64,000 nucleotides of DNA from Bdellovibrionales bacterium (GCA_965203225.1 CBDBBW010000007.1:423574-487573); one strand, 5' to 3'; shown: positions 3,351 through 48,128, counted from the stretch's first letter. A program made the numbers and translations. The notes: generated by a model from the letters alone, not told the origin.

Positions 3351-3828
3351 TCTATATCTGTAGTCTGTAGTTTGTCCTGTAGTTTATAATCTGTATTCTA
3401 GTCTGTTATTTATAGTTTATAGCCTGTAGTTTATAATCTGTAATCTGTAATCTGTAATCTGTCCTGTAGTTTATAGTCTTGTAGTCTGTAGTCTGTAGTC
3501 TGTAATCTGTAATCTGTTGTTTATAGTTTGTAGTCTGTCCTGTAGTTTATAGTCTGTATTCTAGTCTGTAGTTTATAGTCTGTAGTCTGTAATCTGTAGT
3601 TTATAGTCTGTAGCCTGTCCTGTAGTTTATAGTCTGTAGTTTATAGTTTATAGTTTATAGTTTATAGTTTTATAGTTTATAGTTTATAGTTTATAGTTTT
3701 ATAGTTTATAGTTTATAGTTTATAGTCTGTAATCTGTCCTGTAGTTTATAGTCTGTATTCTAGCCTGTATTCTAGTCTGTAGTCTGTCCTGTAGTTTATA
3801 GTCTGTATTCTAGTCTATAGTCTGTTAT
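3351..3828. repeat. ~480-bp degenerate heptanucleotide microsatellite (TAGTCTG / TAGTTTA / TAATCTG family)
   Basis: Read directly. The core at about 3636-3722 is (tagttta)4 plus an extra t, repeated three times, giving a 29-bp super-period. It lies between convergent gene ends. Confidence 0.9.
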
Positions 3829-11793: not shown

Positions 11794-12825
11794 ATGTTTG
11801 AGAAACTTAGAAAGCCGGTCCGAACAAAAAATATTGCCTATTATGTTATTTTTGGTCTTATATGCGTGGTTTTTGTGTTTATCGGGGTGCCGATGGGACA
11901 AATGTCCAGTATAAGCGGATCTGCTTTCATAGTGAATAATAAAATGATTTCCTGGTCAGAATATCAAAATTACCTTGAAATGGTAAGACAACAATCTCAA
12001 AAAGGGGATTTTGGATCGGATTTGGAAACTCAGCGTCAGGAACAACTGAAAAAGCAGGCTATTGATACTCTGCTGAATACGGAGCTAATAAATCAGGAGG
12101 TAGACCAGGTAGGGCTGACTCCTGTCGACAAAGAGGTGCAGGATAAAATTGTGAAGCTTCCTTTTTTTCAGGAAGAAGGCCGGTTTACGCATTCTAAATA
12201 TCGTGCTTTTTTGTCCGCTCGTCGGTTCTCCGCCGGTTATTTTGAAAACCTGATCAGAAAGGAAATACAAACCGCCCGGTTCCAAAATATGTTTAATGTG
12301 GCCGTACGTGTCTCAGAGGGGGAGAAAGAAAAAAGAAAATGGCTGGAGTCATTTAAAGCGCAGGTCAGCTATATTGAGTTTGGGTCTGATGAGCTAAAGC
12401 CGGAGGAGTCAAACAGCATCAACACGATCGTGCGGGAAGGGGACATGGCTTTGCTGGATCAGGTTGTTAGAGATAAAAAATGGAAATGGGAGCAAACGGA
12501 GGTTTTTAATTTACGGCGCGTTTCTTTGCCCGGTTTGGAATCTCATAAAATACTTTTTAATGAGGTATTAAATTATTTTCCTGAAACAGGGTTGATTAAA
12601 AAAACTGTCAATTTGCGTGATCGATTTTTTATATTAAAGGTGGATTCTTTTGTGCAAGCAGAAGAGCCAAATGAGCAAAAAGCTTTCCCTGTTTCGGATT
12701 ATTTTTTTACAAATATGATGTTGGCCCGGATGACTTTTTTATCTTGGGTTCGCTCCGCCCGGCTGTCAGCGAAATTACAATTCAATCCTCGTCTGCAAAC
12801 AAACCAGCCGGCGGAGTTGGAATAA
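11794..12825 (+). CDS. PpiD/SurA-N-like periplasmic chaperone (membrane-anchored)
   Basis: The N-terminus MFEKLRKPVRTKNIAYYVIFGLICVVFVFIG is typical of PpiD-type anchors. A SurA-N-like helical region follows. No clear parvulin domain was seen. Confidence 0.6.
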   Translation: MFEKLRKPVRTKNIAYYVIFGLICVVFVFIGVPMGQMSSISGSAFIVNNKMISWSEYQNYLEMVRQQSQKGDFGSDLETQRQEQLKKQAIDTLLNTELINQEVDQVGLTPVDKEVQDKIVKLPFFQEEGRFTHSKYRAFLSARRFSAGYFENLIRKEIQTARFQNMFNVAVRVSEGEKEKRKWLESFKAQVSYIEFGSDELKPEESNSINTIVREGDMALLDQVVRDKKWKWEQTEVFNLRRVSLPGLESHKILFNEVLNYFPETGLIKKTVNLRDRFFILKVDSFVQAEEPNEQKAFPVSDYFFTNMMLARMTFLSWVRSARLSAKLQFNPRLQTNQPAELE

Positions 12826-13075
12826 ATCTCTGTGTGAAGTAAATCCCTGTTGCCAATACTTTTTTTTTTAACGGGTTCAGACAGCAAGTTGGAATAAATC
12901 TCTGTGTGAAGTAAATCCCTGTTGCCAATACTTTTTTTTTTTAACGGGTTCAGACAGCAAGTTGGAATAAATCTCTGTGTGAAGTAAATCCCTGTTGCCA
13001 ATACTTTTTTTTTTTAACGGGTTCAGACAGCAAGTTGGAATAAATCTCTGTGTGAAGTAAATCCCTGTTACCTTG
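12816..13075. repeat. 72-73-bp tandem array (~3.6 copies) starting inside the last codons and stop of 11794..12825
   Basis: The unit gttggaataaatctctgtgtgaagtaaatccctgttgccaatacttttttttttaacgggttcagacagcaa starts at 12816, 12888, 12961 and 13034. Confidence 0.9.
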
Positions 13076-13515: not shown

Positions 13516-14718
13516 ATGAGAAAGCTTGTTTTTTTATTGACGATATTTTTAATTGGATGTGACACTTCTGTTGGTTTTGACAGTTCACCTCCTTGGGTTG
13601 ATGCTCTTGCCTCTGAGGTGGGTGCAAATAAAAAGAAAAAAATAGATAATCCACGAGGTAAAAAAAGAGGTAAGGGTAAAAAAAGAGGCAAGAAGGTTAG
13701 GCGAACACAGACTATAGCGGATGTGGTTCAGCCCCGCCCCGCTCCTCCTCCTCCTATGACAGACCCGACACTGCCGAAACAACCGGACTTTGTTGTAACT
13801 TTAGAAGAAGCAGTGACTAAACCTAAAGTGGGAAAATATTCTCAGCCAACTCCGGTTCCTGCTCCGGTTCCTGCTCCGGTTCCTACTCCTACTCTGAATG
13901 TACATGATTCAAGTGCTTCATTGGATCGAGAGGCCGTTCGTCCTCAGCCTGTTCAACCACCTTCAGTTCCGGCGAAAGCGGATATTGTTTTTATCGTGGA
14001 TTCCTCTAATTCTATGAATACTTTTTTAAGAAAAGTTGGCACAACCTTTGCCGGGTTTATTCCCGCTTTGGAGCCATTGGATTGGCAGATTATGTTTACT
14101 AATGCAGACTATAGTTGGTTCAAAAAAGGGTACGCCATGAATCTGGAGAATGATGGCAAATTGTTGTGGAAGAAAAAAATAACAAAGGGCATGAAAAATG
14201 CTGAATCTATTTTCTTGGATACATTGAGATTACATAATGAATATGATGAATATCGTGAATATTATAGGGGTGGTAGTGTTGAAACAAGCCCTTGTATATT
14301 AGCCCCCGGTTGTCAAGGGTGGGATGAACAGCCTTTGAAAGCTTTACAATCCTCTTTTGTCGTAAATCGTTCATTTTTTCGCCCAGGTGCGGATGTAATA
14401 GCTATTATTTTTTCTGACAGTGATGAAGCCGCGGACATAAAACAACCTAAATCCAAAACAAAAGCACAGAATGTTGTTCAGGCTTTCCAAAAGCAATGGG
14501 GAGACGACAAAAGATTAATAACTTATGCGATTATTATGATTCCTGAAATTGATGAAGCTTGCAGAAGAAAATATGAGGGTTTCTGGAGAGGAGGCGAAGG
14601 TCTTTTTGGAAAAGAATTCCAAAAATTGGTTGAAATGACAGGAGGTGCAAGTTACAGTCTTTGTGACAGCGATTATACACCTTTAGCACAAAAAATTGTT
14701 TCTGATTTACAAAAATAA
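13516..14718 (+). CDS. lipoprotein with polybasic and Pro-rich linker plus vWA-like (MIDAS DSSNS) domain; paralogue family member 1
   Basis: AGGAGG RBS and lipobox LTIFLIGC. Linker segments are KKKKIDNPRGKKRGKGKKRGKKVRR and the PVPAPVPAPVPTP spacer. The domain motifs are DIVFIVDSSNSM, WQIMFTNADY, CILAPGCQGWDEQPLKAL, IIFSDSDE, YAIIMIPEIDEAC and TGGASYSLCDSDYTPLA. Confidence 0.85.
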   Translation: MRKLVFLLTIFLIGCDTSVGFDSSPPWVDALASEVGANKKKKIDNPRGKKRGKGKKRGKKVRRTQTIADVVQPRPAPPPPMTDPTLPKQPDFVVTLEEAVTKPKVGKYSQPTPVPAPVPAPVPTPTLNVHDSSASLDREAVRPQPVQPPSVPAKADIVFIVDSSNSMNTFLRKVGTTFAGFIPALEPLDWQIMFTNADYSWFKKGYAMNLENDGKLLWKKKITKGMKNAESIFLDTLRLHNEYDEYREYYRGGSVETSPCILAPGCQGWDEQPLKALQSSFVVNRSFFRPGADVIAIIFSDSDEAADIKQPKSKTKAQNVVQAFQKQWGDDKRLITYAIIMIPEIDEACRRKYEGFWRGGEGLFGKEFQKLVEMTGGASYSLCDSDYTPLAQKIVSDLQK

Positions 14719-14745
14719 TATCAAAGTGGAAATGTAATATTTCTA

Positions 14746-15678
14746 ATGTTATGGCGTAAAATAATATTCTTTTTTTTATTTTTCGTATTTTCTTGTGGAT
14801 GTGGCCTTTCTCGAGATACTGTTTCTTTCGAGGAGGGTCAAGCAAGAGGAGTTGATGGGGCATCTGCTCGTATCAGCAACAGGACGGAAAATAATGTTCT
14901 GGACCTAAGCTGGGAGTATAAGGAATCTAAACGGCATAAACAGGTAGATATTCTTTTTGTAGTGGACACCACTTATCACATGATTAAACATCTGAAAAAA
15001 GTGTATGCCACTTTTAGAGATTTTTTACCGAATCTGTCTCCTTCCCATTGGAAAATAGCTTTTACAAATGCGGATTACAATCCGCTTGTTTTTTCCTATT
15101 ATAATCGCGCTTCGTTTGAAGGGAAGATCATGCCATTGGAGCTAAGAGGGAGGATTCTTCCTTATAATATTTTATATCCTTATTTTACAAATAGTGAAAA
15201 AGTATTTTTGGATACTTTAAAAAGATATGAAAAAGGGGATGTATTTGGTGATTCCAATCAGTACATAAACCCCTGTGATTTGCCTCCTTATTGTCAGGGG
15301 AGTGTACGGTCCCCCATTCGCTCCCTTATGAAATCCTTTTCAGTGAATAAAGACTTGTTCAGAAAATACGCTGATTTTGTGGTTGTTATTTTTACGAATG
15401 GAGATGATGAATACGTTGGAAATAATATGGTAAATGTGCTTTTTAATGAGTTTCAAAGTTATCATGGGCCGGATAAACGCATAAAGATATACAGTATTTC
15501 GATTATTCCAGGAGATCAAGATTGCTTTCAAAAAGATCAATCCTCTCATTATAGTTTTGCTAATTCCACTTACAGTCAAAACATTCACGAACTGGTTAAA
15601 GCCACAGGGGGAGAAGCAATAAGTATTTGCGAAGCCAGTTACTCTCCCTTAGCTAAGGCTATTGTGCAAGCGCTATAA
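14746..15678 (+). CDS. vWA-like lipoprotein paralogue 2 (MIDAS degenerate)
   Basis: Lipobox FVFSCGC. Motifs are DILFVVDTTYHM (the DxSxS is lost), WKIAFTNADY, CDLPPYCQG, VIFTNGDDE, YSISIIPGDQDC and TGGEAISICEASYSPLA. Confidence 0.85.
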   Translation: MLWRKIIFFFLFFVFSCGCGLSRDTVSFEEGQARGVDGASARISNRTENNVLDLSWEYKESKRHKQVDILFVVDTTYHMIKHLKKVYATFRDFLPNLSPSHWKIAFTNADYNPLVFSYYNRASFEGKIMPLELRGRILPYNILYPYFTNSEKVFLDTLKRYEKGDVFGDSNQYINPCDLPPYCQGSVRSPIRSLMKSFSVNKDLFRKYADFVVVIFTNGDDEYVGNNMVNVLFNEFQSYHGPDKRIKIYSISIIPGDQDCFQKDQSSHYSFANSTYSQNIHELVKATGGEAISICEASYSPLAKAIVQAL

Positions 15679-15698
15679 GTGAGACAGGTGCATCCCCA

Positions 15699-16011
15699 TT
15701 ACTTTAGAAAAAACCCGGCAGTATATTCAACTATAACTTTTACGCTCAAGTGAATTTCAAAAAAATCTCTATCGCTTACTTTATGAAAAAACCCGGCAGT
15801 ATATTCAACTATAACTTTTACGCTCAAGTGAATTTCAAAAAAATCTCTATCGCTTACTTTATGAAAAAACCCGGCAGTATATTCAACTATAACTTTTACG
15901 CTCAAGTGAATTTCAAAAAAAATCTCTATCGCTTACTTTATGAAAAAACCCGGCAGTATATTCAACTATAACTTTTACGCTCAAGTGAATTTCAAAAAAA
16001 ATCTCTATCGC
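15699..16011. repeat. 78-79-bp tandem array, ~4 copies
   Basis: aacccggcag recurs at 15711, 15790, 15868 and 15947. The unit is ttactttatgaaaaaacccggcagtatattcaactataacttttacgctcaagtgaatttcaaaaaaatctctatcgc. Confidence 0.9.
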
Positions 16012-16142
16012 TTTTTTATTATCTTCCCGGTAGAAATAAGGCTTCGTTTTTTTTTAACTGATTGTAATACCAACTAAGGTCTTAAATTTTTTATCAAAGA
16101 ATTTTTTGATGTTATTATTTGTAAGCCTGTAGTCCTGATACC

Positions 16143-17531
16143 ATGACTAATTTAATACATTTTTTTTTATCTTTTGTTATTCTTTTGCAAAAGGTAACAA
16201 CTGTGAAATACTTTCTGTTTTGTTTATGTGTGTTTTTTATATCATGTACTAAAGGCGTGGATTTTTTTAGTTCGGTTGAGGAAACTGATCCAAAAATTGT
16301 TATCACACATCGAAATCCATTTAGTGTTGTGGACAATGTAAAAAAGAGTCGGAAGAAGCGGAAAAGGAAAAAATCTTATCGACCGCCTCCATCGGAAAAA
16401 TTGATTGTTTTGGCTGGGAATGTGCAATTTGTTCCACAGAGTTCAGTCAGTGATACCATCGATGATATTAAGTTGTCGCCTCCAAACCCAGTTGATGATG
16501 TTGTTCCTATCCACTTAAAAGACAGTGAAAATCCCCCTGTCTTAGTACAACCGACACAGGAGGTGCCTCTTGTGAGCGTCGTCTCTTCTGCTTCTCCTTT
16601 ATTGCAGAAAGAGAAAGTCTCGGTGGTTCAATCTGACTTTGCAAAAAAAGAAGCAGTGCAATTTTCCCCTCCGATGGTTCAGGATGAAAAGAGGCAACCC
16701 TCTTCCTCTCCCGCATTACAGCTTGCTGTGGAAGTGGACAAGCCTGATGAAATATTTATTCTCCGGCCTTTGGATATTTTATTTATTATTGATACATCTG
16801 CATCCATGAATCAGCATTTGAATGTTTTTAAAACGAAGTTTGCGGGCTTTCTAAATTATTTTTTTGATTTACACTGGAAGGTGGCTTTGACCAATTCAAA
16901 TCACGGTGAGAACAGGATATTTCTATACAACATAGGAGCTTTAAAAGGATCGGCTATGAAATTGGAAAGAGCGGGGGTCGTGCTGAATATTCGCTATCTG
17001 TCCCCGGATATTGCCAATTATAATCAGATTTTTATAGACAGTATTTCAAGGAATTCGTACACAAGGGAGGGAGACGGTGGATTGGAGAATGTGGATTTGT
17101 GCAGTCTACCTCCTTATTGTGACGGAGATCAGGAACAGCCTTTGAAAGTTTTAAAATCCGCTTTAGTCAAAAATCAGGATTTCTTCAGAAAAGAGGCGGA
17201 TCTGGCGGTGGTGATTATCAGTAATTCCAGGGAAAGAGGTGGTGATCCCTCATTGGCTACACAGTCGGAAGAAATTGTCGAACAGTTTCGAATCACGCAC
17301 GGATCCCGTAAAAGATTTGAAGTATACAGTCTTATTATTCCGGATGGGGATATGGATTGTCTAAATCAAAATATTGATCGGCAGTTTTTCTTTCCTGAAG
17401 GGGCTTTCTCAAAGGAGATCGCTGTTTTAAGTGAAATGACGGGAGGTAAGGTATTCAGTATTTGTTTGCCTGATTATCGGGTTTTAGCTCAAAGCATATT
17501 TAATTCCTTTGCTACACCTAACATGGAGTAA
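16143..17531 (+). CDS. vWA-like lipoprotein paralogue 3 (polybasic tract, long Pro/Ser/Val linker)
   Basis: The start is more probably GTG at 16204, giving (M)KYFLFCLCVFFISC. KKSRKKRKRKKSYRPPP follows. Domain motifs are DILFIIDTSASM, WKVALTNSNH, CSLPPYCDGDQEQPLKVL, YSLIIPDGDMDC and TGGKVFSICLPDYRVLA. Confidence 0.85.
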   Translation: MTNLIHFFLSFVILLQKVTTVKYFLFCLCVFFISCTKGVDFFSSVEETDPKIVITHRNPFSVVDNVKKSRKKRKRKKSYRPPPSEKLIVLAGNVQFVPQSSVSDTIDDIKLSPPNPVDDVVPIHLKDSENPPVLVQPTQEVPLVSVVSSASPLLQKEKVSVVQSDFAKKEAVQFSPPMVQDEKRQPSSSPALQLAVEVDKPDEIFILRPLDILFIIDTSASMNQHLNVFKTKFAGFLNYFFDLHWKVALTNSNHGENRIFLYNIGALKGSAMKLERAGVVLNIRYLSPDIANYNQIFIDSISRNSYTREGDGGLENVDLCSLPPYCDGDQEQPLKVLKSALVKNQDFFRKEADLAVVIISNSRERGGDPSLATQSEEIVEQFRITHGSRKRFEVYSLIIPDGDMDCLNQNIDRQFFFPEGAFSKEIAVLSEMTGGKVFSICLPDYRVLAQSIFNSFATPNME

Positions 17532-17545
17532 TCATACGCAGAGCT

Positions 17546-19390
17546 ATGTTTCATAAATTGATTAAGGCAATAAAAAAAAATTTTTCTTTAGATGTCCGTT
17601 CCCTTGCTTTGTTTAGAGTGGCGCTTGCACTGATTTTAATTATTGATTTCCTGTTTACCCGGCTTCCTTATTTTACTTTGTTTTATACGGATAAAGGGAT
17701 TTTACCTCTGAGAATTTTGTTCCGTGACAAGTCTTTTTGGGCCAGCTCCAGCTCTTTAAATTTTATCTCTTCCAGTCATGGGTACCAGTTGGTTTTGGGC
17801 ATCACAGCGCTAATATTTTTTTTTATGCTTCTTGTGGGGTATAAAACAAGATGGGCTGTGCTGGGATCCTGGATTTTAGTTGCTTCTTTTCATTCTCGAA
17901 ATTTTTTAATTCTTAACTCCGGCGACATATTAATTTGTCTTTTGTTGTTTTGGTCTTTATGTCTTCCTTTGGGAAAACATTTCTCCTTGGACAGCGCCTT
18001 AATGGAAAAAACAAAGCAGGTTTTTTCTGTCTTTTCCGTGAACTCTTTTTCCTTCATCTTTCAGATTCTGCTCGTTTATTTTTTTACTTATTTGATGAAA
18101 TCGGATAATGTATGGAGCACAGGACAGGCGGTTTATTATGCCTTGATGCTGGATAATTTCAGAACAGCCTGGGGGGACATTTTATTACAATATCCCTATG
18201 TCATGCGAGTATTATCTTTTATTACTTATAATATTATTGAAAACTTTGTGCCGTTGTTGTTTGTGTTTTTCGGTTTTTGGTGGCGATTTAAAGTGCTACT
18301 GATTTTGGTTATGTGTTTTTTTCATTTATCTCTCGGGACTTTTTTACATTTGGGTCTTTTTTCATGGGTCTGTATTGCCGGATGGCTGGCTTTTTTGCCT
18401 TCAGAGTTTTGGGAGCATATAAAAGAGCTTCTACCGGCGGGGAAACGTAAATTATTTGTATATTATGATGAAGACTGTACTTTTTGTAAAAAAGCCAGCC
18501 GGTTAATACAAACATTTTTGATTCTTCCCCATGTGCCTTTTGCTCCGGCTCAATCAGACAGCCGCACTTGGGAGGAAATGCAGAAAAGAAATTCATGGCT
18601 GGTGTTTGACGGGGAAGACAACTGGTATAGTCGTTGGGAGGCCTGGGTCGTGTTGATTTCCCGTTCCCCTTTGTTTTTCTATTTAGCCCCTCTGTTTAGA
18701 ATAAAAAAGCTTTCTGCTTTGGGGGACTGGTGTTACGGAAAAGTAGCTGAAAATAGAAAACAACTGGGGTACTTACTTCCGAATTTTCAAAAAGAAAGAA
18801 GTCAAAAAAAAATATTTTCAATATTGCTGACCGGATTTTTCTTTTTTTCGTTTGTATATGTAATCATGTGGAATGTTCGTACTTTGGATTTTAAATATTA
18901 TTCAAAATATATGCCTAAGGAGTGGAATAAATTTGGAGCTTTTTTTCATTTGAACCAATATTGGAATATGTTTTCTCCCAAGCCTTTGGACAAAACCGGC
19001 TGGATTATTCTCTCTGCTGTTAAATCAGATACGGATGAAAAAATAGATCTGTGGAGACAGGGAAAGCCTGTCAGTATGAAAAAACCCATCAGATATGACA
19101 CCAGTTTTCCAAATTTCCGGTTCAGGAAAATGCTTGAAAATTTTGTCCTGCAATATAAAAAATATAGTGTGAATTATCTGCTGTATCTTTGTGGTGAGTG
19201 GAATACAAAAAAGTCCGGACGATATATTGAAAAAATTGAGTTTATTTATATGGAGCAAAAAATCCCTTCTCCGGAGCGTGTGACCAGCCCAGCCTCCAAT
19301 ATGGAGCAAAAAATCCCTTTTTCGGAGCGGCTTTTGCCTCCAAAAAAGGTATCAATACGTAAAAAACGCTGTCCTCGTCAGCGTGGATGA
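17546..19390 (+). CDS. HTTM-domain multipass membrane protein fused to a DCC/DUF393-like CxxC thiol-disulfide oxidoreductase module
   Basis: The HTTM-type N-terminus is SLALFRVALALILIIDFLFTRLPYF... with about 8 TM segments. The central module is KLFVYYDEDCTFCKKASRLIQ (the DCC CxxC signature). The C-terminus NQYWNMFSPKPLDKTGW is as in HTTM/LMF-like proteins. The gene starts 14 nt after paralogue 3. Confidence 0.8.
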   Translation: MFHKLIKAIKKNFSLDVRSLALFRVALALILIIDFLFTRLPYFTLFYTDKGILPLRILFRDKSFWASSSSLNFISSSHGYQLVLGITALIFFFMLLVGYKTRWAVLGSWILVASFHSRNFLILNSGDILICLLLFWSLCLPLGKHFSLDSALMEKTKQVFSVFSVNSFSFIFQILLVYFFTYLMKSDNVWSTGQAVYYALMLDNFRTAWGDILLQYPYVMRVLSFITYNIIENFVPLLFVFFGFWWRFKVLLILVMCFFHLSLGTFLHLGLFSWVCIAGWLAFLPSEFWEHIKELLPAGKRKLFVYYDEDCTFCKKASRLIQTFLILPHVPFAPAQSDSRTWEEMQKRNSWLVFDGEDNWYSRWEAWVVLISRSPLFFYLAPLFRIKKLSALGDWCYGKVAENRKQLGYLLPNFQKERSQKKIFSILLTGFFFFSFVYVIMWNVRTLDFKYYSKYMPKEWNKFGAFFHLNQYWNMFSPKPLDKTGWIILSAVKSDTDEKIDLWRQGKPVSMKKPIRYDTSFPNFRFRKMLENFVLQYKKYSVNYLLYLCGEWNTKKSGRYIEKIEFIYMEQKIPSPERVTSPASNMEQKIPFSERLLPPKKVSIRKKRCPRQRG

Positions 19391-19404: not shown

Positions 19405-19511
19405 TATAAAACCAATTTGATAGTGTTGTTTTTCCAAAAGCGGCGGTTTTTTGTTTATTCGTAAATCAAAATCCAATTATAAAACCAATTTGATAGTGTT
19501 GTTTTTCCAAA
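19405..19511. repeat. two copies of a 34-bp core spaced 73 bp apart
   Basis: tataaaaccaatttgatagtgttgtttttccaaa starts at 19405 and 19478. Confidence 0.8.
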
Positions 19512-26443: not shown

Positions 26444-26807
26444 TGGTGAGAAGCGGGAATCCCTAGGGTGAGAAAGGGATCGGAAGATTTTCGCCAAAGC
26501 GATCAGGCCCAAGTGGTACTGCGCTTTTGGAGTGAGCAAGGGATCGGAAGATTTTCGATAAAGCGATCAGGCCCAAGTAGTACTGCGCTTTTGGAGTGAG
26601 AAGGGGATCGGAGATTTTCGCCAAAGCGATCAGGCCCAATTAGTACTGCGCTTTTGGAGTGAGAAGGGATTGGAGATTTTCGCCAAAGCGATCAGGCCCA
26701 ATTAGTACTGCGCTTTTGGAGTGAGAAGGGATTGGAGATTTTCGCCAAAGCGATCAGGCCCAATTAGTACTGCGCTTTTGGAGTGAGAAGGGGATCGGAG
26801 ATTTTCG
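26444..26807. repeat. 62-64-bp tandem array, ~5.5 copies
   Basis: gatcaggccc recurs at 26501, 26565, 26628, 26690 and 26752. The unit is gagtgagaagggatcggagattttcgccaaagcgatcaggcccaattagtactgcgcttttg. Confidence 0.9.
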
Positions 26808-26940: not shown

Positions 26941-27183
26941 TCAATGCAGGCGATGATCCTGCACTCTGGACAAAGCCATGCACTGGGTACAGCGGGCTTC
27001 CTCCTTTTATGGAGAGCATTAATGCAGGCGATGATCCTGCACTCTGGACAAAGCCATGCACTGGGTACAGCGGGCTTCCTCCTTTTATGGAGAGCATTAA
27101 TGCAGGCGATGATCCTGCACTCTGGACAAAGCCATGCACTGGGTACAGCGGGCTTCCTCCTTTATATGGAGAGCATTAATGCA
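26941..27183. repeat. 78-bp tandem array (~3.1 copies) derived from the 3' coding end of 27097..27303
   Basis: atgcagg recurs at 26944, 27022 and 27100. The last unit is the gene's own C-terminal 26 codons plus its stop. Confidence 0.9.
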
Positions 27184-27484: not shown

Positions 27485-28138
27485 ATGAGAGAGTTTAAAC
27501 AGCAATTTGTTCCCAGGCCGGATTTGGCTGTGCCCGGGTTTTTAAGGAAGAAAGTTTCTGTCAAGGAGCTGGAAATCGGTGCGGGAGATGGGGAATTTGC
27601 TTTTCACAGTGCCAAAAGCTGTCCGCATTCCCATTTTATAGCGATTGAAAAAAGCCGGAGTTTGTTCAATCGAATGTTTCAAAAGTATCAAAAAGAGCCT
27701 CTTTCCAATTTATGGATTTTTCATACCAATGCTGTCTGGTGGATAAGCCATTTCCTATTACCGGACAGCATAGATAAAGCCTATATTTTCTATCCCAATG
27801 TGTATGTTAAGCCTCGTCAAAGCAATTTAAGGTGGTTTAATCGCCCATTTATGTCTTATTTGCTGAATTGCTTAAAACCCGGCGGCCGGCTCGAAATCAG
27901 GACAAATGAAAAAAAATATTATGAAGAATGTAAAATAAAAATGAACAATTTTCATGATATCAAAAACACGCGGGACTTTTATATTACCCGTTCTTCCGCT
28001 TCGCCCTTTAAGGCTCGTTACTCCTCCCTCGCTGGCGGGAACCCCTCATTTGTCCATTCTCCCGGCACAGCCTTTGAGAGAAAATACCTGGCTCAGGGGC
28101 AAATTTGTAGGGGCCTGATTTATACACGGTTTATTTAA
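27485..28138 (+). CDS. trmB: tRNA (guanine-N7)-methyltransferase
   Basis: SAM-binding ELEIGAGDGEF, the TrmB-like FPDPW-equivalent region (IFYPNVYVKPRQ), and appropriate size. Confidence 0.8.
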   Translation: MREFKQQFVPRPDLAVPGFLRKKVSVKELEIGAGDGEFAFHSAKSCPHSHFIAIEKSRSLFNRMFQKYQKEPLSNLWIFHTNAVWWISHFLLPDSIDKAYIFYPNVYVKPRQSNLRWFNRPFMSYLLNCLKPGGRLEIRTNEKKYYEECKIKMNNFHDIKNTRDFYITRSSASPFKARYSSLAGGNPSFVHSPGTAFERKYLAQGQICRGLIYTRFI

Positions 28139-28197: not shown

Positions 28198-29454
28198 TTG
28201 ATGTTTTTGAAATATTTGGATTTTAAAATGATTACAGTGAATATGAAACTTTTTAACTCTTTTGGAAAATGGTATATAAAAATTCTGACAACCACTCTTT
28301 TTACGGGACTGGTTATGTTGACTTTTTATATGATAAGCTGTCAGGATCTGAATTTTCAGTCCATCCCCGGTGCCAGCTGTGATGAAACAATAGAAATGGT
28401 GGACGGGCTTTCCTGTGGTGATGTGGGAGGAGTGAACGCGGATACTTATGAATATGAAGATGAAGATGAAGATGAATATGAAGATAAAGGTTCAGATCCC
28501 AACACTTCCCAATCTCGCCCCTTCACTCTGGTCACTCGCCTTGGTAAAATCAGTATTTTGTTTATTATAGACACCTCCGGGTCTATGAAGGAAGAGTTGG
28601 CATCTATATCCACTCAGTTTGATCCTTTTTTACAAAAGATCAGAAGGATGGATTATCAGGTAGCCATTACCACAGTTGAGTCGATAAACGGGCAGTTTCT
28701 GACATTTGAAAACGGTCAAAAAATTCTCTCCAATCCGACAAAAAAAAGCTCGGTTCATAAAGAAAATGTGAAACAGTTTCAGCAGAAAATGGAGAATTTG
28801 CCTGTAGCTACCACATCGGATGAAAGGGCTATTTTTGTCTTAAATAAAGTGTTGGATGCGCAGGCCCAGTCGGGATTTTTCCCATCTCATTCTCTCTTTT
28901 TGGCGATCATTGTTTCAGATGAGGATGAAAGAAGTTACGGAGGCGTCCTCCCTTCCTTGCCATCCGATTGTATGGTGCTAGAGACAGTCTCTGCTCACCC
29001 TCTGGAGGAGTTTGATAAGCCGGTCACTTTTTTCAGAAAAAGCCAACAGCAACTACCTTATGTTACAGTGACTGTGCATTCCATTATTGTGCCCCCGGGC
29101 AGTAGTGATTGTGCCACTAATCCCTGTGCACCAAGCGGTGTGAGGATAGAAGGTAAAATTTACGCTCAGGCTTCAAAACCTTCCTCTGCCATGTTGTCCA
29201 CTTACGGGAATGTTCGAACCGGTCATATAGGCTCTATTTGTTCCTCTGATTACAGTAGTCAGTTGGGCCCTATTGCTGATATATTGATAAATACCCCCTC
29301 TATTCCGCTTCACTGTAATCCCGTGTCCGGCAAAGTGAAAGTTCGAGTGGGTGGGGATAAAGTGAAATTTCGAGTGGAAGGCAATAAAATTATCATAGAG
29401 GAATCGGTTTCTTTCAATTCCTATGCAAAAGTGCGGTACTATTGTCGATCATAA
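28198..29454 (+). CDS. vWA-like secreted protein, distant paralogue 4 (acidic linker)
   Basis: TM/signal LFTGLVMLTFYMISC, then YEYEDEDEDEYEDKG. Domain motifs are ISILFIIDTSGSM (DxSxS), YQVAITT, IIVSDEDE, HSIIVPPGSSDC and IGSICSSDYSSQLGPIA, collinear with the 13.5-17.5 kb family. Confidence 0.8.
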   Translation: MMFLKYLDFKMITVNMKLFNSFGKWYIKILTTTLFTGLVMLTFYMISCQDLNFQSIPGASCDETIEMVDGLSCGDVGGVNADTYEYEDEDEDEYEDKGSDPNTSQSRPFTLVTRLGKISILFIIDTSGSMKEELASISTQFDPFLQKIRRMDYQVAITTVESINGQFLTFENGQKILSNPTKKSSVHKENVKQFQQKMENLPVATTSDERAIFVLNKVLDAQAQSGFFPSHSLFLAIIVSDEDERSYGGVLPSLPSDCMVLETVSAHPLEEFDKPVTFFRKSQQQLPYVTVTVHSIIVPPGSSDCATNPCAPSGVRIEGKIYAQASKPSSAMLSTYGNVRTGHIGSICSSDYSSQLGPIADILINTPSIPLHCNPVSGKVKVRVGGDKVKFRVEGNKIIIEESVSFNSYAKVRYYCRS

Positions 29455-30132
29455 CCTTTTTCGTTTGATAGGCTGATGTGAGGAGGGTTTGTTTCGGTTC
29501 TGAGGATGTACTATTGTCGATCATAACTTTTCCAGTTTGATAGGGGTTTTTCATCCAGTCAGTTCCCCGTTGGCTGGCAAAGAATTAAATATACTCCTCT
29601 TATTCCAGTCAGTTCCAAGTGATGTCAGTTCCCCGTTGGCTGGCAAAGAATTAAATATACTCCTCTTATTTCCAGTCAGTTCCAAGTGATGTCTGTGTCA
29701 GTGCCATCTGTCAATAATAACTTTTCCCGATGACAGGGGTTTTGCCTCCTTGTCCGCGCTTACTCCATTATGGAAAAAACCTTAAGCCAAAGTCCTGCCC
29801 CTTCCCTTATGAAAGACTGTCTTATTTTACCCTTAAGCCAAGGCCCTTTCTCCTCCCTTATGAAAGGCCGTCTCATTTTGAGACACCGACTGTTTCACTT
29901 AAGCCAAGGCCTTTTCTCCTCTTTTATGAAAGGCCGTCTCATTTTGAGACAGCGACTGTTTCATTTCGCCCTTAAGCCAAAGTCCCGCCCCTTCCCTTAT
30001 GAAAGACTGTCTTATTTCACCCTTAAGCTAAGGCCCTTTCTCCTCTTTTATGAAAGGCTGTTTCATTTTGAGACACTGACTGTTTCATTTTTCCCTTAAG
30101 CCAAAGTCCTGCCCCTTCCCTTATGAAAGGGC
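29436..30132. repeat. composite repeat block filling the whole convergent intergenic gap
   Basis: (i) gtactattgtcgatcataac at 29436 and 29508 duplicates the last codons of 28198..29454 with a 72-bp offset. (ii) ccagtcagttcc units of 50/67 bp start at 29555, 29605 and 29672. (iii) 29780-30132 holds alternating 51-bp and ~68-bp units (ccttaagccaa...cccttatgaaag...) in the order A-B-B-A-B-A, ending against the sohB stop. Confidence 0.9.
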
Positions 30133-31967: not shown

Positions 31968-32207
31968 GACCAGTTTTGTTGTCTTTGCGCTTAATTTTGT
32001 TGCCTTTGCATGAATGATGATATGCGCTTGATTTTGTTGCCTTTGCATGAATGATGATATGTGCTTGATTTTGTTGCCTTTGCATGAATGATGATATGCG
32101 CTTAATTTTGTTGCCTTTGCATGAATGATGATATGCGCTTGATTTTGTTGCCTTTGCATGAATGATGACATGCACTTGATTTTGTTGCCTTTGCGCGGAA
32201 TAGGAAT
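31968..32207. repeat. 37-bp tandem array, ~6 copies
   Basis: The unit gcgcttRattttgttgcctttgcatgaatgatgatat starts at 31987, 32024, 32061, 32098, 32135 and 32172. Confidence 0.9.
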
Positions 32208-33059: not shown

Positions 33060-34470
33060 GGGGGGGCTTAAGCCAGTGGCGTAAGGGGTAGAGCTTGATG
33101 ATATGTCCAAAAATATTCATCGTTTGAAGTGGAGGGGCTTAAGCCAGAGGCGTAAGAGGTAGAGGGAGGGGTCGGACTGCTGTGCCGCCAAGAGCTGGGT
33201 TTTGGATGGAGTTCCAGTTGTTTTTGTCGTCTGTACAGGTATGTAGGTATATGCCCTAAGAGTTGGGGGTGTATAGCCTCCGTCCATAAGGCAAGAGGTT
33301 AATCAACATTTACGGAACTCTATGGGCAAGGCATCAGCAGGAGCAGGGTGCATGGCCTCTGTCCATAAGGCAAGAGGTTAATCAACATTTACGGAACTCT
33401 ATGGGCAAGGCATAGGGCATCAGGGTTCATGGCCTCTGTCCATAAGGCAAGAGGTTAATCAACATTTACGGAACTCTATGGGCAAGGCATAGGGCATCAG
33501 GGTTCATGGCCTCTGTCCATAATGCAAGAGGTTAAGCAACATTTACGGACGACTCTATGGGCAAGGCATCGGGAGCAGGGTGCATAGCCTCGTGTCCATA
33601 AGGCAGGAGGTTAAACCAGGCGGATCAGGCCTGTATGCACAAGAAAAAGGAGGTACCAGGCCTACCCATCCATAAGGCAAGAGGTTAATCAACATTTACG
33701 GAAAGGGCATCAGGGTGCATAGCCTGTGTCCATAAGGTAACTGTTAAGATAAAGTGCGATGCGTGCCCGTCAAGGGGGGCATCAAGGTGTATAGTATAGC
33801 CTCTGTCCAGGGCATGAGGTTAAACCAATCAGACCTGTATGCACAAGAACAGGGTACACAGGCCTCCTTATCCTCACCATCCATAAGGCAGGAGGTTAGG
33901 CAATATTTACAGAACTCTATGGGCAGAGCATCAAGGTGCATAGCCTCGTGTCCATAAGGCAGGAGGTTAAACCAGGCGGATCAGGCCTGTATGCACAAGA
34001 AAAAGGAGGTACCAGGCCTACCCATCCATAAGGCAAGAGGTTAATCAACATTTACGGAAAGGGCATCAGGGTGCATAGCCTGTGTCCATAAGGTAACTGT
34101 TAAGATAAAGTGCGATGCGTGCCCGTCAAGGGGGGCATCAAGGTGTATAGTATAGCCTCTGTCCAGGGCATGAGGTTAAACCAATCAGACCTGTATGCAC
34201 AAGAACAGGGTACATAGGCCTCCTTATCCTCACCATCCATAAGGCAGGAGGTTAGGCAATATTTACAGAACTCTATGGGCAGAGCATCAAGGTGCATAGC
34301 CTGTGTCCATAAGGCAAGAGGTTAATCAACATTTACGGAACTCTATGGGCAGGGTGCATAGCCTCCGTCCATAAGGCAGGAGGTGTTAAACCAGGCGGAT
34401 CAGGTCTGTATGCGCAAGAAAAAGGAGGTACCAGGCCTACCCATCCATAAGGCAGGAAGTTAAGTCCTCT
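33060..34470. repeat. 1.4-kb complex repeat region (71-bp pair, degenerate ~77-bp units, nested 356-bp tandem duplication)
   Basis: gcttaagccag pair at 33065 and 33136. gtccataaggcaRgaggtta... units with a ~77-bp period start at about 33280. 33581-33936 is duplicated at 33937-34292, and the near-identical ORFs 33744..33941 and 34100..34297 are 356 bp apart. Confidence 0.9.
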
Positions 34471-36950: not shown

Positions 36951-37215
36951 GGGGCAGAGGATGTTTTCACGGTAGCCGTGGCGGTTCGAATATTGTGATT
37001 CAGGGTCATTTGTTGTTGAGGGGCAGAGAATGTTTTCACGGTAGCCTGTGGCGGTGAATCTATAGATGCGTATGGGAGTTAAGAAGATGGTGTTTGATGC
37101 CCTGTTTGTACCTTTTAATTTGCGAACCAACCGATCTAATAAGAAGGGATGATGTTTGATGCCCTGTTTGTACCTTTTAATTTGCGAACCAACCGATCTA
37201 ATAAGAAGGGATGGT
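36951..37215. repeat. two adjacent short arrays (69-bp x2; 60-62-bp x2.3)
   Basis: ggggcagagRatgttttcacggtagcc starts at 36951 and 37020. aagaagRRatgRtgtttgatgccctgtttgtaccttttaatttgcgaaccaaccgatctaat starts at 37081 and 37141, with a partial copy at 37203. Confidence 0.85.
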
Positions 37216-42199: not shown

Positions 42200-42565
42200 T
42201 CTCAATAACAAGTTTTGTTTTGCGGTCCGAATAGCCAAAATCGTCATAGGCTTATGCACAGGAAACTTCCCTCCCGAGGATTTTACGGTCTATAAAAGGG
42301 ATAATGAAACAGCCCATCGTCATAGGCTTATGCACAGGAAACTTCCCTCCCGAGGATTTTACGGTCTATAAAAGAGATAATGAAACAGCCCATCGTCATA
42401 GGCTTGTGCACAGGAAATTTCCCTCCCGAGGATTTTACGGTCTATAAAAGAGATAATGAAACAGCCCATCGTCATAGGCTTGTGTACACAGGCAACTTTC
42501 CCATCTCAATAACAAGTTCCGTACTGCTGTCCTGTTCTGATTTGTACTGCTGTCCTGTTCTGAAG
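42200..42565. repeat. 76-bp tandem array (~4 unit lengths) bracketed by tctcaataacaagtt, plus a 23-bp doublet
   Basis: tcgtcatagg recurs at 42241, 42317 and 42393. The 15-mer sits at 42200 and 42504, which is 304 bp apart (4 x 76). gtactgctgtcctgttctga occurs twice at about 42520-42565. Confidence 0.9.
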
Positions 42566-43171: not shown

Positions 43172-43406
43172 AAATTACAGACCTTTTCTGTTTGTATCAC
43201 TTAAATTTCCCTTATCCGACGCTTTTTCATTCTTTGGTGAAAAAAAACCATGAAGAATTCAAGCGGGATCAGTATCGCTTAGCTTGTGTAATACTATAAC
43301 TTTATAGTTATTTTTTGCTGAAAACAAGATTATTTGTTATAAATAGTAATCTGTTGTATATTTGGCATGGCTATATAAACCTCGATTTTGTGTTGTGGGG
43401 GTAGTT

Positions 43407-43548
43407 GATTGGATTGCTGTAAATGGGTGTTGCAAATGCTGATCGAATTGCTGGGAATGGGTATTGCAAATGCTGATCGAATTGCTGTAAATAGATGTTC
43501 CAAATGTTGATTGGATTGCTGTAAATGGGTGTTGCAAATGCTGATTGG
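43407..43548. repeat. 34-bp tandem array, ~4 copies
   Basis: gatYgRattgctg recurs at 43407, 43441, 43475, 43509 and 43543. Confidence 0.9.
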
Positions 43549-43675: not shown

Positions 43676-43752
43676 GGGGTGGTGGTCTAGTTGGTTAGGA
43701 CGCCGGCCTGTCACGCTGGAGATCGCGGGTTCGAGCCCCGTCCACCCCGCCA
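43676..43752 (+). tRNA. tRNA-Asp (anticodon GTC), CCA encoded
   Basis: Hand-folded cloverleaf. The acceptor is GGGGTGG/CCACCCC, the D arm GTCT/GGAC, and the anticodon stem CCGGC/GCTGG with loop CTGTCAC. The T arm is GCGGG-TTCGAGC-CCCGT, with discriminator G and 3' CCA. Confidence 0.9.
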
Positions 43753-44137
43753 CTTAAACACCACTACTTTTTCAAACCCATGTCATTAACATTTGCAGGA
43801 ACTGTCTGTGTATTTCAAACCCCCGTGTTTCTTGGTTAATCAGGCAATCCTCAATTTCGCCGGACTTATTTCAGGATATTTCCTGATATTTCAAATTTTA
43901 TCTACATGAGTCTACATATTTTGCTATACGGTTTTTTAGGCTGGCTGGAGGCTTCTTTGGTGGTGAAAAGAAATATATCCAGCAATTTTTTATAAGTCGA
44001 TATATAAATTATAGAGTTAAGAAAAGTCTTTTATTGCATAACACTTGATAAATTTTTAATCTGTGAGTACCTATAAAAAAATACAAGAAGCAATTTTTAA
44101 ATTAAATTTTTCGGCTAAAAGGTGTAAATAATTAATA

Positions 44138-45929: not shown

Positions 45930-45944
45930 GAAAAAGAAAGAATA

Positions 45945-47066: not shown

Positions 47067-47079
47067 TACAAAAAATTGA

Positions 47080-47632: not shown

Positions 47633-48128
47633 CTGGTACAATAAATATCGGTAAAATGGCGGGGTAACTCTCACCCCTCTCATTGATTTTAGAGGGAATT
47701 TAACGGGATACTCCGGTTAGGAGAGGTTATCAGCAGTTGTCAGTGGTATAAAAAGGAGCAGATTTATTGGTTTATTGGTTTATTTTAGTGTTTTAAGAAC
47801 TCTTTTTCCTAACCCGTCCCCCCCCCTGCCACTGTTCTCTGTAAACCTTATAAACACTATAGTTTTTCAGAAAAAAATGTTTTTTAACGGGATTTTTTTA
47901 AAAGATTTTTCAAAACAACTTAAACTGCCAATGATTGATTAACTGTGTTTCCAAAACAGTTAGTCGTTTTTAAAGAGGGCAGAAAAAGTTTTTTCTCCCA
48001 CTTCATGATTCAAAAGAACTGCAGTCTTCTCATGGGATAAATCATCAATATTTTCTAAAAATGGAATCTTATAAGATAAATTGTCTTGAAAAATAGATTT
48101 AAAATAAAGTCAAAGAAATAAATTATCT

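What the first reader, a model, noticed from the sequence alone, without database searches (positions are those of the whole stretch)
13516..19390. Three tandem vWA-like lipoprotein paralogues followed by an HTTM + DCC(CxxC) membrane fusion: candidate substrate-plus-maturase module
Seen: three same-strand genes encode lipoprotein signals, low-complexity linkers and a shared ~230-aa domain. The domain motifs are (V/I)D(S/T)S.SM (vWA MIDAS DxSxS, degenerate in the middle copy), W.I.FTNADY, C.L(A/P)P.C.G..EQPLK.L, Y.hIhP..D..C and TGG...S(I/L)C..DY..LA. Four cysteines are invariant across all copies. Fourteen nt downstream sits a 614-aa protein with an HTTM-type polytopic N-terminal domain. It also has an embedded FVYYDEDCTFCKK module (DCC/DUF393 signature) and a QYWNMFSPKP C-terminal region. 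Established: HTTM is the fold of vitamin-K-dependent gamma-carboxylase and of SdpB-type toxin-maturation proteins, and DCC proteins are putative thiol-disulfide oxidoreductases. Inference: the membrane fusion may modify the adjacent secreted vWA-like proteins (disulfide formation or Glu/other modification). I know of no described system pairing these families.
Basis: partly seen in the sequence, partly recalled or inferred. Interest (0 to 1): 0.75.

Follow-up and report, generated by a model that had tools for sequence, protein, structure and literature searches.

The report
vWA adhesin lipoproteins beside GGCX-like enzyme
Three related surface-adhesin-type lipoprotein genes sit just upstream of a bacterial relative of the human vitamin-K carboxylase, but comparison with other genomes and the enzyme's predicted membrane orientation suggest they are neighbours by descent, not a dedicated enzyme-and-substrate pair.

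Summary
There are four same-strand genes. Three are paralogous lipoproteins (BLASTP 1e-43 and 5e-42) and the fourth is a 614-aa membrane protein starting 14 nt after the third.

The domain calls are correct. The shared ~250-aa domain folds as a vWA domain and belongs to a large superfamily that includes the Bdellovibrio MIDAS adhesin Bd0875 and Myxococcus CglD. The membrane protein resembles human gamma-glutamyl carboxylase (GGCX) along its whole length. It keeps the catalytic-lysine equivalent (K185) and has a DCC CxxC domain inserted between TM8 and TM9.

The substrate-plus-maturase inference is weak, for three reasons:
- The array lies directly upstream of the HTTM-DCC gene in 8 of 12 related Bdellovibrionales MAG species and in none of 68 loci from other phyla.
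- Four genomes carry the lipoprotein array with no HTTM-DCC next to it. In two of them the gene lies about 0.5 Mb away.
- GGCX topology and the positive-inside rule both place the CxxC in the cytoplasm, while the lipoprotein cysteines are periplasmic.

The most likely reading is two separate units co-transcribed in one subclade. One is a subfunctionalised adhesin trio; the other is a quinone-dependent membrane enzyme whose substrate is unknown. A periplasmic modification of the lipoproteins by the HTTM active site is not excluded, but I put it at about 10-15%.

The parts
13516..14718 (+). P1: lipoprotein (lipobox LIGC, Cys15), K/R- and Pro-rich linker with a conserved PxWVxxL[AS]S motif, and a vWA domain (aa ~150-400) with a complete MIDAS (D162-x-S164-x-S166, T236, D303)
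   Evidence: The MIDAS residues are conserved in 17-19 of 19 position-1 orthologues.
14746..15678 (+). P2: short lipoprotein paralogue with a vWA domain whose MIDAS is degenerate (DTTYH; beta4 Asp replaced by Asn)
   Evidence: Asn replaces the beta4 Asp in 15 of 15 position-2 orthologues, and the second Ser is variable.
15699..16013 (.). 78-bp x 4 near-perfect tandem repeat that widens the P2-P3 spacer; not part of either gene
   Evidence: Read off the ORF coordinates, orthologous loci have P2-P3 spacers of about 80-180 bp.
16143..17531 (+). P3: lipoprotein paralogue (alternative GTG start at 16203; lipobox FISC) with a long linker and a vWA domain that keeps DxSxS but has Thr->Ser and Asp->Asn at the other MIDAS positions
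   Evidence: The substitutions are fixed in 11 of 11 position-3 orthologues.
17546..19390 (+). HTTM-DCC membrane protein, 614 aa, GGCX-like along its whole length
17591..18430 (+). HTTM transmembrane core (aa 16-295, eight TM helices). K185 corresponds to GGCX Lys218 and H260 to GGCX His287.
   Evidence: K185 is invariant in 69 homologues.
18455..18769 (+). DCC1-like thioredoxin-fold domain (aa 304-408) with D308-x2-C311-x2-C314; inferred to be cytoplasmic
18809..19387 (+). TM9 (aa 422-446) followed by a C-terminal alpha/beta domain (aa 447-613, QYWNMFSPKP), inferred to be periplasmic and to correspond to part of the GGCX luminal domain. It contains a lineage-specific 17-aa duplication (nt 19250-19333).
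28198..29454 (+). P4: a distant fourth paralogue that links the family to the Bd0875-type MIDAS adhesins
   Evidence: fam.hmm E 1e-13; NF052240 E 3.6e-21; hhalign probability 98.1%.
11794..12825 (+). PpiD/SurA-N-like periplasmic chaperone gene, the conserved upstream anchor of the lipoprotein array

Best explanation
The region holds two functionally separable units that are co-oriented, and probably co-transcribed, in one subclade of uncultured Bdellovibrionales.

Unit 1 is an ancient, position-conserved trio of lipid-anchored vWA proteins. They are distant members of the MIDAS-adhesin lipoprotein superfamily of Bdellovibrionota and Myxococcota (Bd0875, CglD). I infer the following steps. Each protein is exported by Sec, acylated at the lipobox Cys, and tethered by a long linker. 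The vWA domain has four conserved cysteines, probably forming two disulfides. P1 keeps a complete MIDAS and is the metal-dependent ligand binder. P2 and P3 have fixed losses of metal-coordinating residues, so they probably act as partners or metal-independent binders.

Unit 2 is a GGCX-like membrane enzyme with nine TM helices. Its quinone-binding active site (K185, H260) faces the periplasm, and it ends in a periplasmic C-terminal domain. A DCC thioredoxin-fold CxxC domain is inserted in the cytoplasmic loop between TM8 and TM9. The DCC domain most likely serves the enzyme's own quinone/epoxide redox cycle from the cytoplasmic side (inference, by analogy with VKOR-Trx fusions; own knowledge). 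It does not act on the neighbours' cysteines. The enzyme's substrate is not defined by this neighbourhood.
For: The fold and family assignments are shown.
- vWA.
- GGCX-like with conserved K185 and H260.
- DCC.

There are three orthogroups, each with a fixed position in the array and a group-specific MIDAS state.

HTTM-DCC fusions occur in Acidobacteriota, Planctomycetota, candidate phyla radiation (CPR) lineages, Pseudomonadales, Nevskiales, Roseibium and others. They share no common neighbour and have no lipoprotein of this family within 10 kb.

The lipoprotein arrays are anchored to the upstream ppiD-like gene and also occur without HTTM-DCC downstream:
- L081: followed by a SWIB gene; HTTM-DCC is about 580 kb away on the same contig.
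- L082: a single copy; HTTM-DCC is about 490 kb away.
- L086: followed by a pentapeptide-repeat gene.
- L087: four copies, then recO.

Topology: eight TM helices precede the DCC domain and one follows it. GGCX has 9 TMs with a luminal C-terminal domain (PMC13187478). K+R density is 0.156 on the inferred cytoplasmic loops against 0.083 on the periplasmic loops, averaged over 69 homologues.
Against: The coupling is tight. The gap is 14 nt here, and ranges from -11 to about 116 nt in 11 other loci. It persists down to about 50% HTTM-DCC identity (L009, L083), which suggests co-transcription and leaves a functional link possible. The active site of the enzyme and the lipoproteins are in the same compartment. 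Topology is inferred from a model and from homology, not measured. No activity has been shown for any HTTM-DCC protein.
Confidence: 0.6

Rival explanations
1. Substrate-plus-maturase, HTTM version. The periplasm-facing GGCX-like active site modifies the tethered vWA lipoproteins, for example by carboxylating Glu or Asp residues or by other strong-base chemistry. The conserved N-terminal linker motifs act as docking peptides, and the cytoplasmic DCC domain recycles the quinone cofactor.
For: The genes are adjacent and closely spaced in 12 loci. The catalytic Lys equivalent is invariant. The enzyme's active face and the lipoproteins share a compartment. P1 and P3 linkers carry conserved short motifs that could serve as recognition peptides. 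P2 and P3 have lost MIDAS carboxylates/hydroxyls.
Against: Adjacency is lost in at least 4 genomes that keep the array, and the linker motifs persist in those genomes. HTTM-DCC is common in phyla that lack this lipoprotein family. There is no Glu-rich, Gla-like segment. The overall synteny of the region (rodA-PBP2-mreDC-ppiD ... VC0807-def-fmt) is conserved in the same genomes, so adjacency there may simply reflect common descent.
Confidence: 0.13
2. General periplasmic redox or oxidative-folding factor. The HTTM-DCC protein couples a cytoplasmic thiol domain to membrane quinone, in the way LMF1, VKOR or DsbB support disulfide-rich secreted proteins. The four-cysteine lipoproteins would be among many clients.
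For: A CxxC thioredoxin-fold domain is fused to a quinone-binding membrane core. Three of 69 homologues weakly match Pfam LMF1. The enzyme is widely distributed independently of any one neighbour.
Against: The protein has no periplasmic CxxC. The only conserved extracytoplasmic cysteines (C549; C609 in the close clade) look structural. The LMF1 match is marginal. No experimental precedent for HTTM-DCC turned up in the literature search.
Confidence: 0.12
3. The DCC CxxC domain directly forms or isomerises the disulfides of the adjacent lipoproteins.
For: Four cysteines are conserved in each vWA domain, and a conserved CxxC lies in the neighbouring gene.
Against: The DCC domain lies between TM8 and TM9 on the side that carries the N-terminus and the K/R-rich loops, which is the cytoplasm. 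The lipoprotein domains are exported (PMC13187478). The related Bd0875 family also has predicted disulfides, and that paper describes no such partner (PMC11003981).
Confidence: 0.03

Closest known systems
Bdellovibrio bacteriovorus MIDAS-family adhesin Bd0875 / Bd1483 (NCBIfam NF052240; PMC11003981)
   Same: Both are lipobox-anchored vWA/MIDAS proteins of Bdellovibrionota with conserved cysteines. Homology is detectable: P1 E 0.0026, the window's fourth paralogue E 3.6e-21, and family members up to 7e-33.
   Different: Scores are far below the equivalog cut-off (17 vs 700 bits). There is no C-terminal segment to build Bd0875's small beta-rich N+C domain. A long disordered linker takes its place. 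The genes form a tandem trio with two MIDAS-degenerate members. No cap region has been tested.
Myxococcus gliding-motility vWA lipoproteins (CglD; NF033765)
   Same: The wider superfamily recovered with the domain profile includes CglD-like vWA lipoproteins. These are multi-protein adhesin sets in a related phylum.
   Different: CglD matches only some distant superfamily members, not P1-P3 themselves. CglD is much larger (1124-position profile).
[quoted passage not shown]
   Same: It is the only significant structural match, over ~580 alignment columns. The sequence profile aligns K185 with Lys218 and H260 with His287. Both have nine TM helices followed by an extracytoplasmic C-terminal domain.
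   Different: Identity is 12-16%. Asn290 is not conserved. The C-terminal domain is ~165 aa rather than three luminal subdomains. A DCC domain is inserted between TM8 and TM9. Substrate and activity are unknown.
Bacterial HTTM + DCC1-like protein paired with a DUF5819 protein (Melghirimyces; bioRxiv 10.64898/2026.08.19.745780) and the fused carboxylase MloH
   Same: The HTTM-then-DCC order is the same. In that system the separate DUF5819 partner (one TM helix plus a domain) occupies the place of GGCX's last TM and luminal domain. Here TM9 plus the C-terminal domain occupies that place in the same polypeptide.
   Different: In the window protein everything is one chain. Its C-terminal domain has no Pfam DUF5819 match at E<=1. 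That paper reports no link to vWA lipoproteins.

Membership tests
vWA (von Willebrand A) domain | alpha/beta Rossmann-like vWA fold | tested here: met
   AF2 model pLDDT 91.6, pTM 0.92. All 50 Foldseek PDB hits shown are vWA-containing entries, among them integrin I and beta-I domains, TRAP, VWF A1 and pilus adhesins. E-values go down to 4e-6 and TM-scores are 0.36-0.55.
vWA (von Willebrand A) domain | Pfam PF00092 match at or above the gathering score | tested here: not met
   P1 scores 16.1 bits against a 23.8 cut-off, and only the beta1 strand/DxSxS region matches. P2 gets only a weak TssR_VWA match (E 0.078) and no PF00092 match; P3 matches no Pfam family.
vWA (von Willebrand A) domain | Complete MIDAS motif (DxSxS ... 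T ... D) | tested here: met
   Met for P1 and its orthogroup (17-19 of 19). Not met for P2 (DTTYH; beta4 Asp->Asn in 15/15) or P3 (Thr->Ser and Asp->Asn in 11/11).
Bdellovibrio MIDAS family adhesin (NF052240, Bd0875 equivalog) | Score above the equivalog cut-off (700 bits) | tested here: not met
   17.0, 12.8 and 12.6 bits for P1-P3, and 75.7 bits for P4. These are distant homologues, not equivalogs.
Bdellovibrio MIDAS family adhesin (NF052240, Bd0875 equivalog) | N-terminal lipobox | tested here: met
   LIGC, VFSC and FISC in P1-P3. A '..GC' lipobox-like motif is present in nearly all full-length family members. This rests on a pattern only; no signal-peptide predictor was available.
Bdellovibrio MIDAS family adhesin (NF052240, Bd0875 equivalog) | Small beta-rich domain built from N- and C-terminal segments, with the MIDAS domain inserted (PMC11003981) | tested here: not met
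   P1-P3 end within a few residues of the last vWA helix. The P1 match covers profile positions 55-322 of 378.
HTTM / GGCX-like | Pfam PF05090 at or above the gathering score | tested here: inconclusive
   The window protein scores 26.1 bits against a 27.7 cut-off (E 7.8e-6, aa 16-286). 58 of 69 homologues match at E<=0.01, the best at 1.2e-14.
HTTM / GGCX-like | GGCX-like fold including the extracytoplasmic C-terminal domain | tested here: met
   AF2 pLDDT 94.3. The 15 significant PDB hits are all GGCX, most with alignments of 571-594 columns.
HTTM / GGCX-like | Catalytic base Lys218 and His287 equivalents | tested here: met
   K185 is invariant and H260 is at least 90% conserved in 69 homologues. 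Both align to GGCX K218 and H287 (residue roles from PMC13187478).
HTTM / GGCX-like | Quinone-dependent epoxidase or carboxylase activity | not testable with these tools
   This needs biochemistry.
DCC1-like thiol-disulfide oxidoreductase (PF04134) | Profile match above gathering, plus the DxxCxxC motif | tested here: met
   43.5 bits against a 27.8 cut-off. D308, C311 and C314 are at least 90% conserved. 63 of 69 homologues match.
Dedicated substrate + maturase gene module | The two families are co-located across independent lineages | tested here: not met
   Adjacent in 8 of 12 Bdellovibrionales MAG species and in 0 of 68 other loci. Four arrays have no HTTM-DCC beside them.
Dedicated substrate + maturase gene module | The catalytic CxxC is in the same compartment as the substrate cysteines | tested here: not met
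   The DCC domain is inferred to be cytoplasmic from the 8+1 TM arrangement, GGCX topology and K+R bias. This is an inference, not a measurement.

The most novel reading that the evidence does not exclude
In this Bdellovibrionales subclade, the GGCX-like enzyme may post-translationally modify the tethered vWA lipoproteins in the periplasm. One possibility is quinone-dependent carboxylation of Glu or Asp. The conserved linker motifs (PxWVxxL[AS]S in P1, CNKxVYFFS in P3) would act as propeptide-like docking sites, and the cytoplasmic DCC domain would regenerate the cofactor. That would be the first bacterial vitamin-K-type modification of a protein adhesin.
Probability: 0.08. Interest if true: 0.85.

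Novelty: new member of a known kind. Interest (0 to 1): 0.3.

Why it matters
If the neighbourhood is only synteny, the region adds two modest things. First, it adds a deeply diverged, triplicated branch to the MIDAS-adhesin lipoproteins of predatory and host-associated Bdellovibrionota. Its fixed 'one active MIDAS plus two degenerate' pattern hints at a heteromeric adhesin. Second, it provides a clean single-chain example of a complete GGCX-like architecture in bacteria, with a cytoplasmic DCC domain. That is a useful construct for asking what bacterial HTTM enzymes do and how they recycle their quinone. Only if the enzyme really modifies the lipoproteins would this become an important finding.

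Tried and rejected
1. The wide 14-sequence alignment (A3) could not be used for locus finding because it has no conserved stretch. The 8-sequence alignment A4 was used instead.
2. I looked for a universal neighbour of HTTM-DCC by clustering all ORFs within 6 kb in 80 loci. No cluster spans the phyla. The broadest were a GlmM-like gene shared by L010-12 and Pseudomonadales loci, and a GST-like gene in Roseibium.
3. The metagenome scan from the lipoprotein side returned one weak locus (25% identity), which is uninformative.
4. The sigma-70 promoter and terminator scan of 12.7-20.4 kb gave counts equal to shuffled sequence, so it says nothing about operon structure.
5. Kyte-Doolittle hydropathy alone gave ambiguous TM counts. 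I replaced it with helices from the AF2 model plus GGCX homology and K+R bias.
6. Three proteins (P0039, P0031, P0186) were not on record for neighbourhood look-up.
7. No Pfam DUF5819 match was found for the C-terminal domain at E<=1, so the equivalence to the DUF5819 partner rests on position and structure only.
8. The two tandem repeats that flank or interrupt the array are unrelated in sequence. I rejected them as part of the system.
9. Model coordinates are not exposed, so the cysteine pairings (C260-C266 and C349-C383 in P1 numbering) could not be measured and remain inference.

Full report
OBSERVATION

- P1: 13516-14718, 400 aa
- P2: 14746-15678, 310 aa
- P3: 16143-17531, 462 aa
- a 614-aa membrane protein: 17546-19390

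The last gene starts 14 nt after the P3 stop codon. P1-P3 are true paralogues. BLASTP gives 1e-43 for P1 vs P2 and 5e-42 for P1 vs P3, with 33-35% identity over a ~250-aa C-terminal domain.

The quoted motifs are present, some only in part. P3 has WKVALTNSNH instead of W.I.FTNADY. P2 has SVRSPIR instead of EQPLK. P2 has SY instead of DY after the TGG...S(I/L)C motif. FVYYDEDCTFCKK lies at aa 304-316 of the membrane protein and QYWNMFSPKP at aa 471-480.

Each paralogue has a lipobox-type signal (LIGC, VFSC, FISC). P3 may begin at an in-frame GTG at 16203.

A 78-bp x 4 tandem repeat (15699-16013) widens the P2-P3 spacer. A 73-bp x 3.5 repeat (12815-13069) lies upstream of P1. The two repeats are unrelated in sequence.

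WHAT THE LIPOPROTEINS ARE

Pfam sees only a sub-threshold VWA match, at the DxSxS strand of P1 (16.1 bits against a 23.8 cut-off).

An AF2 model of the P1 domain, built on 67 homologues, is confident (pLDDT 91.6, pTM 0.92). All 50 Foldseek PDB matches shown are vWA-containing entries. They include integrin I and beta-I domains, Plasmodium TRAP, VWF A1 and Gram-positive pilus adhesins, with E-values down to 4e-6. The 'vWA-like' call is therefore correct.

NCBIfam's 'MIDAS family adhesin' model (NF052240) was built for the Bdellovibrio Bd0875 family. It hits P1 weakly but over the full domain (E 0.0026). A fourth, distant paralogue in the window (28198-29454) links the two families. It matches my family HMM at 1e-13, the family alignment by hhalign at 98.1% probability, and NF052240 at 3.6e-21.

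The word-indexed search found only 93 clusters, all unannotated and from 'Bdellovibrionales bacterium' / 'Oligoflexia bacterium' MAG-type contigs. The exhaustive profile search shows a much larger superfamily: 4869 representatives at E<=1e-3 and 301 at E<=1e-30. Sampled mid-range members match NF052240 (up to 7e-33) and the Myxococcus gliding lipoprotein CglD.

Bd0875 is a lipobox-anchored, disulfide-containing vWA adhesin at the predator-prey interface, and its MIDAS residues are required for invasion (PMC11003981). P1-P3 are therefore a diverged branch of a known kind. They are not equivalogs of Bd0875 (17 bits against 700). They also lack the C-terminal segment that, together with the N-terminus, forms Bd0875's small beta-rich domain.

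THE TRIO IS OLD AND SUBFUNCTIONALISED

Across 17 loci the array members fall into three orthogroups, each with a fixed position in the array.
- Position 1 (P1) keeps the full MIDAS: D, S, S, T and D in 17-19 of 19.
- Position 2 (P2) always has Asn in place of the beta4 Asp (15/15) and a variable second Ser.
- Position 3 (P3) keeps DxSxS but has Thr->Ser and Asp->Asn in 11/11.

Exactly four cysteines per domain are kept in 42 of 45 members. I infer two disulfides, a local CxxxxxC pair and a distal pair.

The 'low-complexity' linkers carry conserved short motifs. P1 has C-x-x-P-[IV]-x-F ... P-x-W-V-x-x-L-[AS]-S followed by a K/R patch, and the PxWV motif is sometimes repeated. P3 has C-N-K-x-V-Y-F-F-S plus a basic patch and YQxPPxEExIVL.

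WHAT THE MEMBRANE PROTEIN IS

Pfam finds DCC1-like (E 9e-11, aa 305-407). It also finds HTTM just under the gathering score (26.1 vs 27.7 bits, aa 16-286). Among 69 homologues, 63 match DCC1-like and 58 match HTTM.

The AF2 model is very confident (pLDDT 94.3). Its only significant PDB matches are 15 human GGCX structures, most aligned over 571-594 columns. The similarity therefore covers the C-terminal domain as well as the HTTM core. A sequence profile also finds GGCX (E 7e-4). It aligns the invariant K185 with the catalytic base Lys218 and H260 with His287 (residue roles from PMC13187478).

The model has eight TM helices (17-47, 78-97, 101-118, 125-137, 165-184, 217-242, 246-266, 272-281). 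These are followed by the DCC domain (304-408), a ninth TM helix (422-446) and a ~165-aa alpha/beta domain.

GGCX has nine TMs with its C-terminal domain in the ER lumen (PMC13187478), so its N-terminus is cytoplasmic. Mapping this onto the window protein puts K185 and H260 at the periplasmic ends of TM5 and TM7. It puts the C-terminal domain in the periplasm and the DCC CxxC (C311, C314) in the cytoplasm.

K+R density over 69 homologues agrees: 0.156 on the inferred cytoplasmic loops against 0.083 on the periplasmic ones. This topology is an inference, not a measurement.

A 2026 preprint describes a 447-aa HTTM+DCC1-like protein whose separate DUF5819 partner completes a GGCX-like assembly. 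It also notes MloH as a bacterial vitamin-K-type carboxylase (bioRxiv 10.64898/2026.08.19.745780). The window protein looks like the single-chain version of that assembly. The HTTM+DCC architecture is therefore already known, although no member has been characterised functionally.

IS THERE A SUBSTRATE-MATURASE LINK?

Starting from the enzyme. A scan of GTDB species representatives returned 80 loci. Twelve come from Bdellovibrionales MAGs. The other 68 come from Acidobacteriota, Planctomycetota, CPR lineages, Woesearchaeota-labelled bins, Pseudomonadales, Solimonas/Nevskia, Roseibium and others.
- The lipoprotein family lies directly upstream in L001-L007 (three copies) and L009 (two copies).
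- It is absent within 10 kb in L008 and L010-L012, and in all 68 loci from other phyla.
- Extra look-ups add L083 (two copies, 11-nt overlap with the enzyme gene) and L084/L085 (three copies).
- No neighbour is shared across phyla.

Starting from the lipoproteins. The conserved anchor of the array is the upstream ppiD-like gene next to mreCD-PBP2-rodA, not the enzyme.
- In the genome of L008 the intact P1-P2-P3 array is followed by a SWIB gene. It lies about 580 kb from HTTM-DCC on the same 2.0-Mb contig.
- In the genome of L011 a single P1-like gene follows ppiD, about 490 kb from HTTM-DCC.
- L086 (ppiD-P1-P2-P3, then a pentapeptide-repeat gene) and L087 (four copies, then recO) also have no HTTM-DCC within the 6 kb fetched on each side.

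In most genomes where the two are adjacent, the whole region is collinear with the window: rodA ... ppiD upstream, and VC0807/def/fmt/rpe downstream where the locus extends that far. Adjacency there may therefore reflect shared ancestry as much as selection.

The version in which the HTTM domain modifies the neighbours is not excluded. The compartments match, the spacing is tight (-11 to ~116 nt) and the linkers carry conserved motifs. But it has only lineage-restricted support.

MECHANISM I CONSIDER MOST LIKELY (confidence 0.6)

There are two independent units.

Unit 1 is a lipid-anchored adhesin trio. P1 binds ligand through a metal-loaded MIDAS. P2 and P3 act as MIDAS-degenerate partners. 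Export, acylation and disulfide formation by the general machinery are inferred.

Unit 2 is a quinone-dependent GGCX-like enzyme acting at the periplasmic face on an unknown substrate. Its cytoplasmic DCC domain supplies or withdraws reducing equivalents for the quinone/epoxide cycle. I infer this by analogy with VKOR-thioredoxin fusions (my own knowledge).

Rival explanations:
- The HTTM domain modifies the lipoproteins (0.13).
- The protein is a general periplasmic redox or oxidative-folding factor, LMF1-like (0.12). Three of 69 homologues weakly match Pfam LMF1.
- The DCC domain directly forms disulfides in the neighbours (0.03).

NOVELTY AND VERDICT

Both components are new members of known kinds. 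The pairing is a subclade-specific gene arrangement rather than a conserved system. Interest is modest (0.3). The residual novel reading is a bacterial vitamin-K-type modification of an adhesin. I give it about 8% probability; it would be highly interesting if true.

Noticed in passing
window 12815-13069, 15699-16013, 26468-26807, 26943-27183, 29558-30129, 31986-32194, 33267-34325, 37086-37213, 42240-42498, 43406-43548, 56163-56667: The window is unusually dense in near-perfect tandem repeats (mostly 91-99% matches), which appear to lie mostly between genes, with periods of 34-356 bp and 2-6 copies. Two of them flank or interrupt the lipoprotein array, and those two are unrelated in sequence. 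Orthologous loci in related MAGs have a much shorter P2-P3 spacer.
   Followed up: partly
window 28198-29454 (+), next to a trmB-like gene at 27485-28138: This is a fourth, distant vWA lipoprotein paralogue. It is closer to the Bd0875-type MIDAS adhesin family (NF052240 E 3.6e-21) and has a complete DxSxS and beta4 Asp. It is conserved in the same relative position in L003, L004, L006, L007, L084 and L085.
   Followed up: partly
window 13561-13960 (P1 linker) and 16250-16750 (P3 linker); alignments from L001-L009 and L081-L087: The supposedly low-complexity linkers contain conserved short linear motifs. P1 has PxWVxxL[AS]S, sometimes repeated, followed by a K/R patch and RxVxDxV. P3 has CNKxVYFFS, a K/R patch and YQxPPxEExIVLxGQV[ED]F. 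The motifs persist in genomes where HTTM-DCC is not adjacent. Their function is unknown.
   Followed up: partly
window 19250-19333 (aa 569-596 of the HTTM-DCC protein): This is a lineage-specific in-frame tandem duplication (MEQKIPSPERVTSPASN / MEQKIPFSERL). It is absent from all aligned orthologues and falls in the only low-confidence stretch of the model.
   Followed up: partly
window 19406-19438 and 19479-19511: There are two exact 33-bp direct copies (ATAAAACCAATTTGATAGTGTTGTTTTTCCAAA) in the convergent intergenic region between HTTM-DCC and the VC0807-family gene.
   Followed up: no
window 57905-60556 (+), 61450-62352 (+), 62716-64000: An 883-aa protein combines a trypsin-like peptidase domain with 13 Sel1 repeats (Pfam E 5e-135). 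Further 108-bp-period, Sel1-type repeat genes follow it. Such expansions are typical of host-associated bacteria.
   Followed up: partly
window ~44000-57000, after the tRNA at 43676-43749: This low-GC block (0.26-0.34, against 0.36-0.45 elsewhere) holds a DUF4145 gene, an N6/N4 DNA methylase, and a 1518-aa ORF on the - strand with no Pfam match (48129-52685). It looks like a tRNA-flanked genomic island with a restriction-modification-like module.
   Followed up: no
window 3357-3825: A long degenerate microsatellite-like array, with a 7-bp (TCTGTAG) / 14-bp unit and ~70 copies at 71-73% matches.
   Followed up: no
L084 and L085 (both from ENA contig ctg836539, 3.03 Mb, linear): The same mreC-ppiD-P1-P2-P3-HTTM-DCC-HNH region occurs twice on one contig, about 1.9 Mb apart. 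The two HTTM-DCC proteins are diverged enough to be listed as separate 90%-identity clusters (P0010 and P0017). This suggests either a chimeric assembly of two related genomes or a very large duplication.
   Followed up: no
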